Assembly (NCBI GenBank): GCA_021848545.1
Contig: JAJZUL010000014.1
Coordinates: 1,430-65,429, forward strand
Source: Pseudomonadota bacterium
Lineage (GTDB): Bacteria; Pseudomonadota; Alphaproteobacteria; Rhodospirillales; Magnetospirillaceae
Direction of reading: 5' to 3'
DNA length: 64,000 nucleotides
Both the position numbers and the translations under genes were made by a program. A model generated the notes under the pieces. That model had not been told where the DNA came from. It saw only the letters and a list, made by a program, of their open reading frames with translations, and did no database searches. Positions 1 to 4,302 of this stretch are shown one piece after another (the stretch's first letter is position 1; the number at the start of each line of letters is the position of its first letter).

Positions 1-222
1 ATCGCCGATGGCGCGGGGATCGCGGCGGCCGATGAAATGGCCGGGAACCTGTATTACGCCGTGGCCATGGCCCGCATTCTCTATGCCCGCGTGCCCGATC
101 CGCTGCCGCCGGCCGGCGATGTCGAGGCGCAGGCCGCCTATTACAAGCGCTGGTATAACACCGCCGGCGGCGCGGCCAGCATCGGGCAATACATCAGCCA
201 CTGGCACAGGGCTTTCTCATGA
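1..222 (+). CDS. 3' end of an unidentified phage-associated protein (possibly the endolysin; 5' end outside window)
   Basis: Frame 1 is open from the window edge to TGA 220-222 (...AQAAYYKRWYNTAGGAASIGQYISHWHRAFS*) with high third-position GC. Its stop overlaps the next ATG (ATGA at 219-222). It lies directly upstream of holin-like and spanin-like genes. I could not recognise a family from the 73 aa visible. Confidence 0.3.
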   Translation: MADGAGIAAADEMAGNLYYAVAMARILYARVPDPLPPAGDVEAQAAYYKRWYNTAGGAASIGQYISHWHRAFS

Positions 223-533
223 CGAATCCGCTGCAACGGGCGCTCGACCCGCATGACGACAGCCTGGAGATCCACACGCTCGCGGGGCTGATCGTCCTGG
301 CCATCGCCGTGTCCTCGCTGGCGATCCTCTGTGTGGCCTATGTCGCGCAGGTGTTCGAGGCGATCGCCGCCGTGTCCTCGCTGCATCCGATGCCGGATAC
401 CGGCGCCTTCGGGACGGCGGTCGCGGCGATTCTCGCCGGGATCGCGGCGCTGATCCCGGCGATGGCCGCTGCGGGGCTTCTGACCAATAAAAGCCGCGCC
501 GTACAGGCGCCCCCGTCATCGGGAGGATCGTGA
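219..533 (+). CDS. small two-TM membrane protein, holin / LysA-like
   Basis: 104 aa with two hydrophobic segments (LAGLIVLAIAVSSLAILCVAYVAQVF; AFGTAVAAILAGIAALIPAMAAAGLL) and a polar C-tail. High GC3. Tightly packed between the upstream ORF and the spanin-like genes. Confidence 0.5.
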   Translation: MTNPLQRALDPHDDSLEIHTLAGLIVLAIAVSSLAILCVAYVAQVFEAIAAVSSLHPMPDTGAFGTAVAAILAGIAALIPAMAAAGLLTNKSRAVQAPPSSGGS

Positions 534-534
534 A

Positions 535-1044
535 ATGGGATTGATCGATGACGCGGAGGGCGCGGCCGAAGCGGTGGCCACCGGGGGCGCCAGCATCTGG
601 GGAAAGATCGGCGTCTATGCGCTGATCGCCGCGGCTGTGGGTGGCCTCATCTGGTACGCCTGGCGCGCGACCGAGAAATTGGGCGCCGCGAATGTCTCTC
701 TGCATACGGCGCGGTCGGCGGCAAAGGCCAATGCGGCGGCGGTCGTGACGCTCCAGGCCGATTACACGGCCTCCATGACCGCCATCGCGGACGCGGAGGC
801 TCGGCATGCCGCTGCCGCCAGGAAAACCCGAGCAATGGTGAGGGTCATCAATGACGCATCTTCGAAGCATAAAAAGGGCTGTCCGGGGCCGGATACGCCT
901 TTTCCTGATTACGGTCCCGGCAACGATGCTTATCTCTGCCTGCTCCACAACGGGTGTGGTCCCGAAGGTGCAAGTGGTGCGGGAGTCGGTGCCAGCACCA
1001 TATCTGCGTCCGATTCCGGTGCCGGGGCTGCCGCCGCGCGATAA
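535..1044 (+). CDS. i-spanin (Rz/LysB)-like protein with N-terminal TM anchor
   Basis: Starts 1 nt after the previous stop. N-terminal TM segment (IGVYALIAAAVGGLIWYAW) followed by an Ala-rich helical region. Third-position GC drops after about 850, where the +2 frame ORF begins, as expected for an overlapped spanin pair. Confidence 0.45.
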   Translation: MGLIDDAEGAAEAVATGGASIWGKIGVYALIAAAVGGLIWYAWRATEKLGAANVSLHTARSAAKANAAAVVTLQADYTASMTAIADAEARHAAAARKTRAMVRVINDASSKHKKGCPGPDTPFPDYGPGNDAYLCLLHNGCGPEGASGAGVGASTISASDSGAGAAAAR

Positions 1045-1153
1045 GTGGACGCCGCGCACCGAAGCCAGCACGCTGATCCGCACTGCCCGCGCCTTACGTG
1101 CCTGCAACGGGCGTCTCTCGGACATCGCCCAGCAATGGGGCTCCCGCAAATGA
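851..1153 (+). CDS. o-spanin (Rz1/LysC)-like outer-membrane lipoprotein
   Basis: Starts inside the 535..1044 ORF in another frame and extends beyond it. Basic n-region, hydrophobic core and lipobox (LFLITVPATMLISA|C), then a Pro-rich mature part (PAPYLRPIPVPGLPP). High GC3 in this frame. Confidence 0.55.
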   Translation: MTHLRSIKRAVRGRIRLFLITVPATMLISACSTTGVVPKVQVVRESVPAPYLRPIPVPGLPPRDKWTPRTEASTLIRTARALRACNGRLSDIAQQWGSRK

Positions 1154-1197
1154 CGATTCTTTCCCGCATCCGGGCCGCGCTGGCGGTCCTTTTTCAT

Positions 1198-1611
1198 ATG
1201 GAGAACACGATGGATCCCAATAATCCTTCCACCGCGCCTGTGCCGGGTCAGACGGCCGCGCCGGCCACCACCGATCCGGCGCCCGATGTGACCGCTTCCC
1301 AGGAGTCGACCGCGCCGGCGTCCGACCCGTCGACTCCCGCCGCTGCCGCCAGTCGCACTCTTGCGGACGTGGATGCCGACATTCGCGCCAAACAGGCGCA
1401 GTTGGCGGCGATCCGCGATCGGAAGGCCGCCTTGGCCGTGGACGAAAGGGCCGGGTGTGAGGATCTGGGCGCTCTGGTGGCCGAGGGTCGATCGATCATG
1501 GCCCAGGCCGAGGCCGGCTATGCCGCCGTGGAGAAGCTCGTCGCGGAGACCGTCCACGCCTCGGAAACGCTGATCGGCAAGATCGAGCAGGATGTCAAAG
1601 ACGCCGTCTGA
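1198..1611 (+). CDS. hypothetical protein (Pro/Thr/Ala-rich N-terminus, helical C-terminus)
   Basis: ATG 1198 (alternative ATG 1210), high GC3, followed immediately by a strong intrinsic terminator. No recognisable family. Confidence 0.5.
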   Translation: MENTMDPNNPSTAPVPGQTAAPATTDPAPDVTASQESTAPASDPSTPAAAASRTLADVDADIRAKQAQLAAIRDRKAALAVDERAGCEDLGALVAEGRSIMAQAEAGYAAVEKLVAETVHASETLIGKIEQDVKDAV

Positions 1612-1630
1612 CGGCGACTCATTAGCAGAA

Positions 1631-1667
1631 AGACCCCGCTGGCTCCGGCCGGCGGGGTCTTTTTTTC
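1631..1667 (+). terminator. rho-independent terminator
   Basis: AGACCCCGC (1631-1639) pairs with GCGGGGTCT (1652-1660), followed by a T-run at 1660-1667. Confidence 0.8.
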
Positions 1668-2013
1668 GTTTGGGGCACCCTTTATTCTTGATCAATATGA
1701 TCGCGGTTTTCCCATCCGATAGCTTGTCGTACGGTCATTTCGTCGCCCGACAGCGCCACGCCCGGACCGCCGTTGCCCCCGAGAGAAATTCCGTTTTCCA
1801 CCATTACCCTTTCTGTCATTGCCCGTGAGCGTCGGCCGGCGCCGCCGTCCCGAGCGTCGATCCGCGAGGGACCATATGCACCGGGATCGGCGATCTGGCG
1901 CTGATGAGGTGGAAAATACTGTTTTCCATTTCGCCCATAAACCATTGATGCTTATTGGCGAAAACAATCTGTTTTCCATTTTAGAGCATTGAAATATCAG
2001 TAAAACGCTGGGC

Positions 2014-2058
2014 ATCATAATCCGCGTGTCGGGGGTTCAAGTCCCTCCTCCGCTACCA
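2014..2058 (+). other. orphan 3' half of a tRNA-Met(CAU)-like gene (putative att site remnant)
   Basis: Anticodon-loop-like AUCAUAA (2014-2020), 3' anticodon stem TCCGC, variable GTGTC, T-arm GGGGG-TTCAAGT-CCCTC, 3' acceptor CTCCGCT, discriminator A, CCA (2056-2058). No complementary 5' acceptor (AGCGGAG), D-arm or 5' anticodon stem is present upstream. Confidence 0.7.
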
Positions 2059-2062
2059 ACAA

Positions 2063-2104
2063 AAACCCCCGTCAAGTCAAGTGCTTGGCGGGGGTTTCTC
2101 TTTG
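2063..2104 (+). terminator. rho-independent terminator downstream of the tRNA fragment
   Basis: AAACCCCCG (2063-2071) pairs with CGGGGGTTT (2089-2097), followed by a T-rich tail TCTCTTT. Confidence 0.6.
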
Positions 2105-2280
2105 CGTTCCCGGCGGCGCGCGCCCGATATCCCACCCGTCTGGGGATCGGGATCGGCGTAGAGGCGGGGCCGGCCCTTCGGGCGTCGAAATTCCACACGG
2201 ATCGCTTGGCCGTCCTCGGCATTTTATTTTTTCGGCTGTTACACGGAGCGGCTTGCAAGCCGTTTCGGCCGGTCCCTACA

Positions 2281-4302
2281 ATGCCGCCTGCCGCCATCCT
2301 TGGAGGGTGGCAATCATCCTTCCCCTTCGCCGTGTTTTCGGGGTGTCCCTTGAGACCGCTTCCCGTTTTCGTATTGCTCGCCTTGGGCTTGAGCGTCCTT
2401 TTTTGCGTCGTCGCGCCGGCGCGGGCGACCGATCGCGGGAACGCGGATTTGTATCGCAGGGTCCTGGCGCAGGCGCGGGACGGTCATTTCACGGTCGCCC
2501 GGCGTCTGGCGGTTCGCGCCCATTCGGTGGAGCTGGACCGGTTGCTGTCCTGGATGGATTACACTTCGGATAGTCCCACGGGTACTTTCGCCCAGATCAC
2601 GGCCTTCATCACCGCCGGTCCCGATTGGCCGTGGCAGGCCCGCCTGGAGGCGGCGGCCGAAGAGGCGATCACCGGTTCCACGCCCGATAAGGCGTTGGTC
2701 GCCTGGTTCCGTCATCGCTCGCCCATCACCATGGTCGGGGCCGTGGCCTATGCCAAGGCGTTGCTGGCTACCGGCCATACAAAGCAAGGCGTGGCGATGG
2801 TCCGGCGAATCTGGATCCGATATAATTTCAGCCCATTGCGGGAACGGGTGTTTCTGGACAAATTCGGGCGCTATTTAAAGCCTGGGGATAATTGGCGGCG
2901 CCTGGACCGTTTGTTGTGGGATCAGCGAATCACCGCCGCCCGGCGCATGCTGCTCAGGGTCGATGCGGCCCATCGGCTGCTGGCCCAGGCGCGGATCGCG
3001 TTGGAGGTCGACCGCGTCAATCCGTCCATGGCGGTGGCAAGGGTGCCCGCCGCTCTTAAATCCGATCCCGGCCTGATCTTCGACCGCATCCGTTGGCGGC
3101 GCCTGAACGGGTATGACGATCAGGCCATGGATCTGATGCTCCGCGTGCACGCCGCGCCGCGCCGGCCCGGTCTGTGGTGGGCGGAACGCAGCATTCTGGC
3201 GCGCGAGGCCCTGAAGGATGGTCTGGCACGGCGGGCCTATGAGGTCGCGGCCGACAATGGGTTGTCCCCGCGCAGCGCCGACCAGCCGGCCGCCGAATTT
3301 CTGGCGGGATGGATCGCCCTGGATTATCTCGACAAGCCCAAGCTGGCGGCGCCCCATTTCCTGCGTTTGTGGCGCATCACCCGGACGCCGATCTCAAAGG
3401 CCCGTGCCGCCTATTGGTCGGGACGCGCCGCCGAGGCGCTGGGGGACCGCAAGGCGGCTCGCCTTTGGTATGATCGCGCCGCTCGCTTCGTGACCACCTT
3501 TTACGGCCAGCTCGCGGCCTCGCAAATCGGGGAGCGCCACTTGCCGCTGCCGCGAGCGCCCCGGGTCACCGCCGCCGACCGTCACTGGCTGGACAACCGC
3601 GCCTTGATCGGGGTGGTGCGTCTGTTGCGCATGGCGCGGCAGGAGGAATTGATGCGCCCGTTCCTGATCGCCCTGGACACCAGCGCCACCACCCCCGGAG
3701 AGCATGTGCTGGTGGCCCGTCTGGCCGACGAAATGGGGCGCCGCGATGTCGCCGTTCTGATCGCCCGGCGCGCGTCCATGCGGGGCCAGATCATGATCAG
3801 GGCGGGCTGGCCGCTTCCCCGTCTGTCCTTGCGCCGCAAGCCCGCGCGGGCTTTGGTTCTGGCCTTGATACGGCAGGAAAGCAGCTTCCACAGCGCCGCC
3901 CGCTCTCCGGCCGGTGCCCGCGGCTTGATGCAGCTGCTGCCCGCGACCGCCCGGCGCATGGCCCACTTGATCCGGGTCGCGTTCAGCCAACGCAGGCTCG
4001 ACGATCCCGACTTCAATGTGCGGCTGGGGTCGGTTTATCTGGAACGGTTGGTGTCCGAGTTCCACGGCTCCTACGTTCTCGCCCTGGCCGCTTACAATGC
4101 CGGTCCGACGCGGGTGCGGCGCTGGGTCAAAAAATTCGGCAATCCCGGCGACCCGGATGTGGACGCCGTCGATTGGATCGAAAGAATCCCGTTCGGCGAA
4201 ACCCGCAATTACGTGCAACGGGTCATGGAAAGCGTCGAGATATACCGGCGGCGCCTGGGTGAAAAGGGGGGGAGCGATCTCGCCGCCGATCTGAAACGCT
4301 GA
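2281..4302 (+). CDS. slt: soluble lytic murein transglycosylase (Slt70-like)
   Basis: Signal peptide-like N-terminus (LPVFVLLALGLSVLFCVVAPARA), a long superhelical N-domain, and a C-terminal SLT domain with ESSF...GLMQLLPATA...AYNAGP motifs. Start taken at ATG 2281 (alternative TTG 2350). The ORF-track start at 2026 reads through the tRNA fragment and is rejected. Confidence 0.85.
   Translation: MPPAAILGGWQSSFPFAVFSGCPLRPLPVFVLLALGLSVLFCVVAPARATDRGNADLYRRVLAQARDGHFTVARRLAVRAHSVELDRLLSWMDYTSDSPTGTFAQITAFITAGPDWPWQARLEAAAEEAITGSTPDKALVAWFRHRSPITMVGAVAYAKALLATGHTKQGVAMVRRIWIRYNFSPLRERVFLDKFGRYLKPGDNWRRLDRLLWDQRITAARRMLLRVDAAHRLLAQARIALEVDRVNPSMAVARVPAALKSDPGLIFDRIRWRRLNGYDDQAMDLMLRVHAAPRRPGLWWAERSILAREALKDGLARRAYEVAADNGLSPRSADQPAAEFLAGWIALDYLDKPKLAAPHFLRLWRITRTPISKARAAYWSGRAAEALGDRKAARLWYDRAARFVTTFYGQLAASQIGERHLPLPRAPRVTAADRHWLDNRALIGVVRLLRMARQEELMRPFLIALDTSATTPGEHVLVARLADEMGRRDVAVLIARRASMRGQIMIRAGWPLPRLSLRRKPARALVLALIRQESSFHSAARSPAGARGLMQLLPATARRMAHLIRVAFSQRRLDDPDFNVRLGSVYLERLVSEFHGSYVLALAAYNAGPTRVRRWVKKFGNPGDPDVDAVDWIERIPFGETRNYVQRVMESVEIYRRRLGEKGGSDLAADLKR

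What the first reader, a model, noticed from the sequence alone, without database searches (positions are those of the whole stretch)
2014..2104. Orphan 3' half of a tRNA-Met(CAU)-like gene with its own terminator: probable prophage/island att boundary
Positions 2014-2058 read as a perfect tRNA 3' portion:
- anticodon loop AUCAUAA with U33 and A37;
- 3' anticodon stem;
- 5-nt variable loop;
- GGGGG-TTCAAGT-CCCTC T-arm;
- acceptor 3' strand, discriminator and CCA.
The sequence upstream cannot form the 5' acceptor, the D-arm or the 5' anticodon stem. An intrinsic terminator follows at 2063-2104. This is what is left at the distal end when an integrase recombines within a tRNA gene: the element regenerates the tRNA at its other end, next to int. 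Together with the lysis cassette, it places the element's right boundary at about 2014-2058. The chromosomal backbone (slt) then starts just beyond.
Basis: partly seen in the sequence, partly recalled or inferred. Interest (0 to 1): 0.6.

Follow-up and report, generated by a model that had tools for sequence, protein, structure and literature searches.

The report
Prophage end: displaced tRNA-Met fragment
This is the leftover 3' half of a tRNA-Met gene that marks where a tailed prophage sits in the chromosome of an uncultured alphaproteobacterium, which is a textbook and very common arrangement.

Summary
Window 2014-2058 is identical, 45 of 45 bases, to the 3' end (anticodon loop to CCA) of a 77-nt tRNA-Met(CAU) that does not vary across many Alphaproteobacteria. 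The 5' 32 nt are absent, and ARAGORN and Rfam find no tRNA. A strong hairpin terminator follows at 2063-2106.

To the left lies a prophage whose visible late region looks complete: lambda-type terminase and head genes, Mu-type baseplate, holin-like gene and spanins. Its late region is collinear with Acetobacter phage phiAP1, which integrates into a tRNA gene with a tyrosine integrase. To the right lies chromosome (slt, ilvD). In the closest relative found, an intact copy of this tRNA sits upstream of slt, with a homologous terminator and slt leader.

This tRNA is a common phage target. Sixty IMG/VR viral contigs carry the same 45-nt fragment, and all seven neighbouring ORFs I tested are tyrosine integrases.

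I could not test its key prediction, an intact tRNA plus integrase at the other end: that end lies outside the window and could not be retrieved. A non-regenerating integration ("tRNA-dependent lysogeny") is therefore not excluded. The feature is ordinary and of low interest.

The parts
1..222 (+). C-terminal end of a 161-aa phage protein (PHROG 3108, function unknown). It has a homologue in the same position in phage phiAP1.
   Evidence: (E 6.6e-41)
219..533 (+). 104-aa ORF with two hydrophobic segments, a holin-like candidate. The assignment rests on position and sequence only.
   Evidence: translation; no family hit
535..1044 (+). Rz-like inner-membrane spanin
   Evidence: phrog_214, E 7.8e-7
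851..1153 (+). Rz1-like outer-membrane spanin in another frame, overlapping the i-spanin gene. It carries a lipobox-like ISAC.
   Evidence: phrog_456, E 1.1e-9; translation
1135..1611 (+). Last prophage gene, 158 aa, Ala/Pro-rich N-terminus, no family match. Its position suggests a possible moron.
1627..1664 (+). Intrinsic terminator that closes the phage late/lysis genes: 17-bp stem plus a T run
1665..2013 (.). Non-coding phage arm of attR (P arm). GC falls to 46-52% near the junction. The motif (C/T)GTTTTCCA occurs three times as a direct repeat, within the 15-nt copies at 1786-1800, 1914-1928 and 1964-1978, and TTTTCCA once inverted at 1908-1916. These are candidate arm-type integrase sites.
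   Evidence: no family for the minus-strand ORFs here
2014..2058 (+). Displaced 3' 45 nt of tRNA-Met(CAU), from anticodon loop to CCA. This is the att identity block. The strand exchange presumably lies at its 5' end, in the anticodon loop (2014-2020); that placement is inferred.
2059..2106 (+). Native intrinsic terminator of the tRNA gene: hairpin 2063-2097 plus a U tract. It is homologous, with compensatory changes, to the terminator behind the intact tRNA in L203.
2245..4302 (+). Chromosomal slt (soluble lytic transglycosylase) with its leader and a promoter-like site at 2253-2282. The likely true start is TTG 2350, which aligns with the called start in L203.

Best explanation
Window 2014-2058 is the attR junction of a temperate phiAP1-like myovirus that integrated by site-specific recombination into the chromosomal tRNA-Met(CAU) gene. 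The gene lies upstream of slt.

Proposed mechanism:
1. The phage attP carries a copy of the tRNA's 3' 45 nt.
2. A phage tyrosine integrase exchanges strands within this identity block, most likely in the 7-nt anticodon loop at its 5' edge.
3. The tRNA promoter and 5' 32 nt become joined to the phage-borne 3' copy at the far (left) end, which gives an intact gene.
4. The original 3' 45 nt and the gene's own terminator are displaced about 33-45 kb downstream. They now sit between the phage P arm (1665-2013) and slt.

Shown: the fragment, its exact identity to the tRNA, phage DNA on one side, and conserved backbone on the other.
Inferred: the integrase, the regenerated tRNA at attL, and the crossover position.

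The fragment itself is most likely functionless.
For: The fragment:
- It is 45/45 identical to the 3' end of a tRNA-Met that does not vary across Alphaproteobacteria. The break falls sharply at the first base of the anticodon loop.
- No tRNA is called in the window.

Left flank:
- It carries GpA terminase, gpW, portal, S49 protease, gpD, gpE, sheath, tube, tape measure, Mu-type baseplate and fibre, then a holin-like gene and spanins.
- 19 of 30 gene products match phiAP1 in the same order. The portal is 61% identical.
- phiAP1 has been shown by experiment to integrate with a tyrosine integrase into the 3' end of a tRNA gene without disrupting it (PMC8566455).

Right flank:
- It carries slt, ilvD and further housekeeping genes.
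- In the closest Slt relative (64% identity, L203) the intact 77-nt tRNA lies on the same strand about 1 kb upstream of slt.
- In that relative the terminator just 3' of CCA and the slt leader are homologous to window 2059-2104 and 2245 onwards.

P arm:
- It is AT-rich and carries a repeated TGTTTTCCA motif.

This tRNA as a target:
- 74 IMG/VR contigs hold the 45-mer, 60 of them as a fragment.
- 7 of 7 neighbouring ORFs tested are PF00589 integrases.
- 9 of 117 classifiable genome hits are also fragments.
- tRNA-Met(CAT) is the commonest prophage site in Paracoccus (PMC6536676).

General mechanism: the Islander paper, PMC4383910 (abstract shown).
Against: - attL, the second 45-nt copy and the integrase of this prophage were not seen. 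The visible prophage stops inside the terminase gene, about 23 kb left of the junction.
- No strain with the same Slt and an empty site was found. Every contig with the identical Slt that reaches this far carries the junction.
- The only 'empty-like' site is in a relative with 64% Slt identity. That relative has two extra small ORFs between the tRNA terminator and slt.
- 83 more distant Slt loci have no tRNA-Met upstream of slt.
- The 5 bases left of the loop (TGGGC) are a poor inverted repeat of UCCGC, so a symmetric core site is not evident.
- The IMG/VR count is biased. The search required the whole 45-mer, so phages with a short core could not appear.
Confidence: 0.85

Rival explanations
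1. Non-regenerating integration ('tRNA-dependent lysogeny'). The phage attP shares only a short core, around the anticodon loop, with the tRNA gene. Integration splits the gene without rebuilding it, and a tRNA-Met gene carried by the phage compensates.
For: Seen from attR alone, this looks identical to the observation: a host tRNA 3' part that starts at the crossover point and abuts phage DNA. The phenomenon is documented for actinobacteriophages and was suggested to be more widespread (PMC10865867). The unseen early region could carry a tRNA gene.
Against: No tRNA gene lies in the 23 kb of prophage that can be read. Phages that target this tRNA commonly carry the full 45-nt copy, although that search could only find such cases. 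The related phage phiAP1 does not disrupt its target tRNA. Regenerating integration is by far the commoner case (PMC4383910).
Confidence: 0.05
2. Relic att site. The fragment, and perhaps the 1665-2013 segment, were left by an older element at this hot spot. The present prophage either ends at about 1664 or forms a tandem array with that older element.
For: tRNA hot spots often collect tandem or decayed elements (PMC11476347). L203 has two stray small ORFs at the same spot. The 350 bp between the last phage terminator and the fragment match no known family. Two contigs of one assembly break at 1631-1664.
Against: Those contig breaks overlap by 34 nt exactly on the 17-bp hairpin, so they are an assembly artefact. 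Four other contigs run straight through. There is no second partial tRNA copy between the phage genes and 2014. An arm of 350 bp that is AT-rich and carries repeats is the normal size and look of an attP arm.
Confidence: 0.05
3. A Mu-like transposable phage transposed into the anticodon loop of the tRNA gene. The phage end would be ...GGGCA, and the tRNA 5' half with a short target duplication would lie at the other end.
For: The baseplate genes are Mu-type: Mu gp45, gp46 and gp48, Baseplate_J and DNA_circ_N. The junction can be read as ending in CA at 2013-2014.
Against: The packaging and head genes are lambda-type: GpA ATPase/nuclease terminase, gpW, Portal_2, S49 protease, gpD and gpE. They are not Mu-type. 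The collinear relative phiAP1 has a tyrosine integrase and a defined att site. Five independent assemblies share the same junction.
Confidence: 0.01
4. The segment is a functional RNA in its own right: a non-canonical or split tRNA, a tmRNA piece, or an sRNA made from the junction promoter-like site through to the terminator.
For: A sigma-70-like match, TTGAAA-18-CATCAT, lies at 1989-2018. A strong terminator follows. The Rfam tmRNA model matches the T-arm weakly (10.7 bits).
Against: ARAGORN, which also detects permuted tmRNA, and Rfam find nothing. The promoter-like site scores only 9 of 12 and such sites are about as frequent in shuffles. The sequence is fully explained as a tRNA gene remnant.
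Confidence: 0.01

Closest known systems
Displaced tRNA-gene fragments at the ends of tyrosine-integrase prophages and genomic islands (the Islander model, PMC4383910; examples recalled from memory: P4, P22, HP1)
   Same: A direct-repeat copy of the tRNA 3' part marks the distal end of the element. The element lies on the 5' side of the fragment and chromosome on its 3' side. The identity block runs from the anticodon loop to the 3' end.
   Different: Nothing differs in kind. Here the partner copy and the integrase were not seen.
Acetobacter phage phiAP1 (LC644972.1; PMC8566455)
   Same: It is the closest cultured alphaproteobacterial phage. The late region, from terminase to baseplate, fibre and the PHROG-3108 protein, is collinear. 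It is temperate, has a tyrosine integrase at the opposite prophage end from the tail and lysis genes, and integrates at the 3' end of a tRNA gene without disrupting it.
   Different: phiAP1 uses tRNA-Ser(TGA) with a 24-bp core, and its tRNA gene abuts the tail/lysis end. Here the target is tRNA-Met(CAU) with a 45-bp block, and the tail/lysis end carries the displaced fragment. Protein identities are only 28-61%.
Prophages integrated in tRNA-Met(CAT) of Paracoccus and other Alphaproteobacteria (PMC6536676), and the IMG/VR contigs that carry the same 45-mer
   Same: The target tRNA class is the same, and for the IMG/VR contigs the 45 nt are identical. Tyrosine integrases lie next to the site.
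   Different: These phages are unrelated: blastn finds no similarity to this prophage or its P arm. In most of them the identity extends further 5' into the anticodon stem (..GCAGCGGA), whereas here it stops at the loop.
tRNA-dependent lysogeny of actinobacteriophages (PMC10865867)
   Same: The attB overlaps a tRNA gene, and a tRNA 3' part lies at one prophage junction.
   Different: There attP and attB share only about 10 bp, the tRNA is not rebuilt, and the phage carries a replacement tRNA. None of this could be tested here, and no phage tRNA is seen in the readable 23 kb.

Membership tests
attR/attL of a prophage site-specifically integrated in a tRNA gene | A segment identical to the 3' part of a genuine tRNA gene of the host clade, running to the tRNA 3' end | tested here: met
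   45/45 identity to the 3' end of an intact 77-nt tRNA-Met(CAU) in all 25 genomes tested with ARAGORN, and 108 intact copies among the 120 loci
attR/attL of a prophage site-specifically integrated in a tRNA gene | The segment is not itself a complete tRNA, because the 5' part is missing | tested here: met
   ARAGORN finds 0 genes in the window. Rfam finds none. The alignment shows that the upstream 32 nt are unrelated.
attR/attL of a prophage site-specifically integrated in a tRNA gene | Mobile-element DNA on one flank and conserved chromosome on the other | tested here: met
   Left flank: phage head, tail and lysis genes. Right flank: slt, ilvD and further genes, with the terminator and slt leader homologous to the intact-tRNA locus L203.
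attR/attL of a prophage site-specifically integrated in a tRNA gene | A second, direct-repeat copy of the segment inside an intact tRNA at the other end of the element | not testable with these tools
   The other end is outside the window, more than 23 kb to the left. The source is absent from the searchable DNA collections.
attR/attL of a prophage site-specifically integrated in a tRNA gene | The element encodes a tyrosine or serine integrase | not testable with these tools
   No integrase lies in the readable 23 kb late region. The collinear relative phiAP1 has one at the far end.
attR/attL of a prophage site-specifically integrated in a tRNA gene | An unoccupied site (intact tRNA directly followed by the same downstream DNA) in a related genome | tested here: inconclusive
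   L203 (Slt 64% identical) has the intact tRNA, a homologous terminator and slt, but with two extra ORFs in between. No conspecific empty site was found. 83 more distant loci lack this gene order.
Mu-like transposable prophage end | Mu-type replication/transposition and headful packaging modules, with random insertion | tested here: not met
   The terminase and head genes are lambda-type: GpA, gpW, Portal_2, S49, gpD, gpE. The junction is the same in five assemblies. The transposase region itself was not seen.
Complete non-canonical tRNA or two-piece tmRNA | A covariance-model or ARAGORN hit with acceptor, D, anticodon and T arms (or a tmRNA tag) | tested here: not met

The most novel reading that the evidence does not exclude
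The prophage integrated through a short core in the anticodon loop without rebuilding the tRNA-Met gene, and carries its own tRNA-Met in the unseen early region. That would be 'tRNA-dependent lysogeny', so far described for actinobacteriophages, in an alphaproteobacterial myovirus. A weaker variant is that the orphan T-arm, acceptor strand and terminator are transcribed from the junction promoter-like site as a small RNA.
Probability: 0.05. Interest if true: 0.5.

Novelty: new member of a known kind. Interest (0 to 1): 0.12.

Why it matters
The fragment gives a base-precise right boundary (2014-2058) for a previously undescribed phiAP1-like temperate myovirus. The host is an uncultured, deeply branching Rhodospirillales-like alphaproteobacterium. 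The result also adds one more case to the evidence that this invariant tRNA-Met(CAU) is a major phage integration hot spot in Alphaproteobacteria. This is useful for annotation and prophage delimitation, but it tells us nothing new about mechanism.

Tried and rejected
- **Fetching the left end of the prophage.** I walked left with the look-up of encoding contigs from a window protein, then from the tape-measure protein found. This reached the terminase gene. The third and last protein search did not return the identical terminase, so the walk stopped about 10 kb short of where two contigs end.
- **Searching for the source or close relatives in DNA collections.**
  - Slt gave no hit in genome contigs.
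  - Baseplate J in viral contigs gave only relatives of 30-33% identity.
  - The junction 25-mer gave 0 hits in JGI metagenomes.
- **blastn of the prophage and P arm** against all loci that carry the 45-mer found no similarity.
No read-level test for excision (attP or attB junction reads) or for expression was possible.
- **Survey of 80 distant Slt loci** for tRNA-Met/slt gene order found none.
- **Contig ends at 1611-1664.** I considered them a possible true element boundary and rejected this. Two contigs of one assembly overlap by 34 nt on the hairpin.
- **Mu-type transposition** was rejected on the head and terminase module.
- **Which CAU tRNA this is.** It is not an initiator, because the anticodon stem lacks the three consecutive G-C pairs. 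From memory, its acceptor stem (G1-U72, G2-C71, C3-G70) resembles elongator tRNA-Met rather than lysidine tRNA-Ile2. This was not tested.

Full report
**What is there.** Window 2014-2058 (+) reads ATCATAATCCGCGTGTCGGGGGTTCAAGTCCCTCCTCCGCTACCA. The only addition is that the T-stem has one G-U pair. The 45-mer is unique in the window, with 0 expected by chance. ARAGORN finds no tRNA or tmRNA anywhere in the 64 kb. Rfam finds nothing at gathering thresholds, and at E<=10 only an 18-nt T-arm match to the tmRNA model.

**It is a piece of a real tRNA.** In all 25 loci checked, the match is the last 45 nt of an intact 77-nt tRNA-Met(CAU). Of the 120 loci, 108 are intact, 9 are fragments and 3 are cut by a contig end. 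The full gene is GGCGGAGTAGCTCAGCTGGTTAGAGCAGCGGAATCATAATCCGCGTGTCGGGGGTTCAAGTCCCTCCTCCGCTACCA. The alignment shows that the window becomes identical exactly at the first base of the anticodon loop and is unrelated before it.

**The terminator.** Positions 2063-2097 form a 15-bp hairpin followed by UUUCUCUUU. The 97-nt fold has -38.7 kcal/mol and z = -5.0.

**Left flank: a prophage.**
- Contigs from several metagenome assemblies carry window proteins. One of them (L121) is 100% identical to the window over the 11 kb they share.
- These contigs extend the sequence leftwards. They show, in order:
  - lambda-type large terminase (GpA), gpW, portal, S49 protease, gpD and gpE;
  - head-tail proteins, sheath, tube, chaperone, and a tape measure with a lysozyme domain;
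  - DNA_circ_N, GpP, Mu gp45, gp46, Baseplate_J and gp48;
  - fibre genes and small genes;
  - inside the window, a holin-like ORF (219-533), an Rz-like i-spanin (535-1044), an overlapping Rz1-like o-spanin (851-1153), a 158-aa ORF with no family (1135-1611) and a strong terminator (1627-1664).
- The late region is collinear with Acetobacter phage phiAP1. 19 of 30 products match in the same order, and the portal is 61% identical.
- phiAP1 is a mitomycin-inducible temperate myovirus. Its tyrosine integrase has been shown to integrate it into the 3' end of a tRNA-Ser gene without disrupting the gene (PMC8566455).
- The lambda-type packaging and head module argues against a Mu-like transposable phage, despite the Mu-type baseplate.

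**The 350 bp between the last phage terminator and the fragment (1665-2013).** This stretch matches no protein family. Its GC content falls to 46-52%, against 65-70% around it. It holds three direct copies and one inverted copy of a TGTTTTCCA-type motif. This is what an attP arm with arm-type integrase sites looks like, but that reading is an inference.

**Right flank: chromosome.**
- slt, ilvD, a hemerythrin/response-regulator gene, chorismate-binding and SurA-like genes follow.
- The host is poorly sampled. The nearest Slt is 64% identical (P0002), and the next are about 55%. The best Slt among species-representative genomes is 47-48% identical.
- In the contig of the 64% relative (L203), an intact copy of the same 77-nt tRNA lies on the same strand about 1 kb upstream of slt.
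- The DNA just 3' of CCA in L203 is a homologous terminator with compensatory stem changes. The slt leader and promoter region aligns with window 2245 onwards.
- The tRNA fragment and its terminator therefore sit at the native tRNA locus, and backbone starts at the fragment.
- L203 has two extra small ORFs between the terminator and slt, so it is an 'empty-like' site rather than a clean empty site.
- More distant relatives do not share the tRNA-Met/slt gene order: 0 of 80 loci, plus L204-L207.

**This tRNA as a phage target.**
- 74 IMG/VR viral contigs contain the exact 45-mer: 60 as a 3' fragment, 12 as an intact tRNA at a provirus edge, and 2 cut by a contig end.
- Seven ORFs immediately next to the 45-mer, from different contig groups, were tested. 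All are PF00589 tyrosine integrases.
- In some contigs the integrase lies upstream on the same strand. In others it lies downstream, on the opposite or the same strand. 'Integrase next to the regenerated tRNA' is therefore usual but not a rule.
- Published surveys agree. tRNA-Met(CAT) is the most frequent prophage site in Paracoccus (PMC6536676). tRNA genes are hot spots flanked by 12-98-bp repeats in S. meliloti (PMC11476347).
- The general principle, a regenerated target plus a displaced fragment marking the two ends, is stated in the Islander paper (PMC4383910).

**Mechanism proposed.** The phage attP holds a copy of the tRNA's 3' 45 nt. The integrase exchanges strands inside the identity block, probably in the 7-nt anticodon loop at its 5' edge. 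That placement rests on a recalled classification of tRNA sublocations and was not tested here. The host 5' 32 nt and promoter then join the phage copy at attL. The original 3' 45 nt and terminator end up at attR, between the P arm and slt.
- Shown: the fragment, its identity to the tRNA, and both flanks.
- Inferred: the integrase, attL and the crossover point.

**What could not be done.**
- The other end of the prophage lies more than 23 kb left of the junction. I could not reach it.
  - The source genome is in none of the searchable DNA collections.
  - The third and last protein search did not return the identical terminase needed to continue the walk.
- Contig breaks at 1611-1664 in two assemblies looked at first like a boundary. 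They are an assembly artefact at the 17-bp hairpin: two contigs of one assembly overlap by 34 nt there, and other contigs run through.

**Rivals.**
1. Non-regenerating integration with a phage-borne replacement tRNA (tRNA-dependent lysogeny, PMC10865867). From attR alone this cannot be told apart from the main reading. No tRNA gene lies in the readable prophage, and regeneration is the norm, so I give it about 5%.
2. A relic att site from an older element, about 5%.
3. Mu-type transposition into the gene, about 1%.
4. A functional small RNA or odd tRNA, about 1%.

**Verdict.** This is a textbook prophage-chromosome junction in a new phage and host pair. Interest is low.

Noticed in passing
window 535-1153: The two spanin genes overlap in different frames: the i-spanin at 535-1044 and the o-spanin at 851-1153, which has a lipobox-like ISAC. 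This is a lambda Rz/Rz1-like arrangement at the very end of the prophage.
   Followed up: partly
window 1135-1611: A 158-aa ORF with an Ala/Pro-rich N-terminus and a coiled-coil-like C-terminus matches nothing in Pfam or PHROGs. It lies between the lysis genes and att and has its own strong terminator, which is a typical moron position.
   Followed up: partly
window 1786-1978: The motif (C/T)GTTTTCCA occurs three times in direct orientation, within 15-nt repeat copies at 1786-1800, 1914-1928 and 1964-1978, and TTTTCCA once inverted (1908-1916). A 12-nt inverted repeat lies at 1929-1963. These are candidate integrase or IHF/Xis arm sites.
   Followed up: partly
window 2026-4302: The longest slt ORF starts at GTG 2026, inside the tRNA fragment, and is spurious at its 5' end. 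The gene callers used ATG 2281. Alignment with L203 and the signal peptide suggest TTG 2350 as the real start.
   Followed up: partly
L203 380-1104: In the closest relative, two small ORFs sit between the intact tRNA-Met terminator and slt: one HAD_PNKP-like (169 aa) and one of 71 aa. They may be the remnant of another element at the same hot spot.
   Followed up: no
L149 and L183 (IMGVR_UViG_3300037418_002046): One 58.8-kb viral contig holds two copies of the 45-nt fragment. The upstream arm, with an integrase-sized ORF, is the same at both copies, but the downstream DNA differs. This suggests tandem or nested elements at this tRNA.
   Followed up: no
window 1627-1664 (contigs DAIAJD010000204.1 and DAIAJD010000202.1): Two contigs of assembly GCA_027430655.1 end and begin inside the 17-bp terminator hairpin and overlap by 34 nt. 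This is an assembly break at an inverted repeat, not a biological boundary.
   Followed up: yes
whole window (host): The host lineage is poorly sampled. The nearest Slt in 5.8 billion proteins is 64% identical. The best among 185,579 species-representative genomes is 47-48% identical (Rhodospirillaceae, Stellaceae and other alphaproteobacterial MAGs).
   Followed up: partly
window 1989-2018: A sigma-70-like match, TTGAAA-18-CATCAT, straddles the phage/tRNA junction and points into the fragment and terminator. It is probably a chance match (9 of 12 positions).
   Followed up: no
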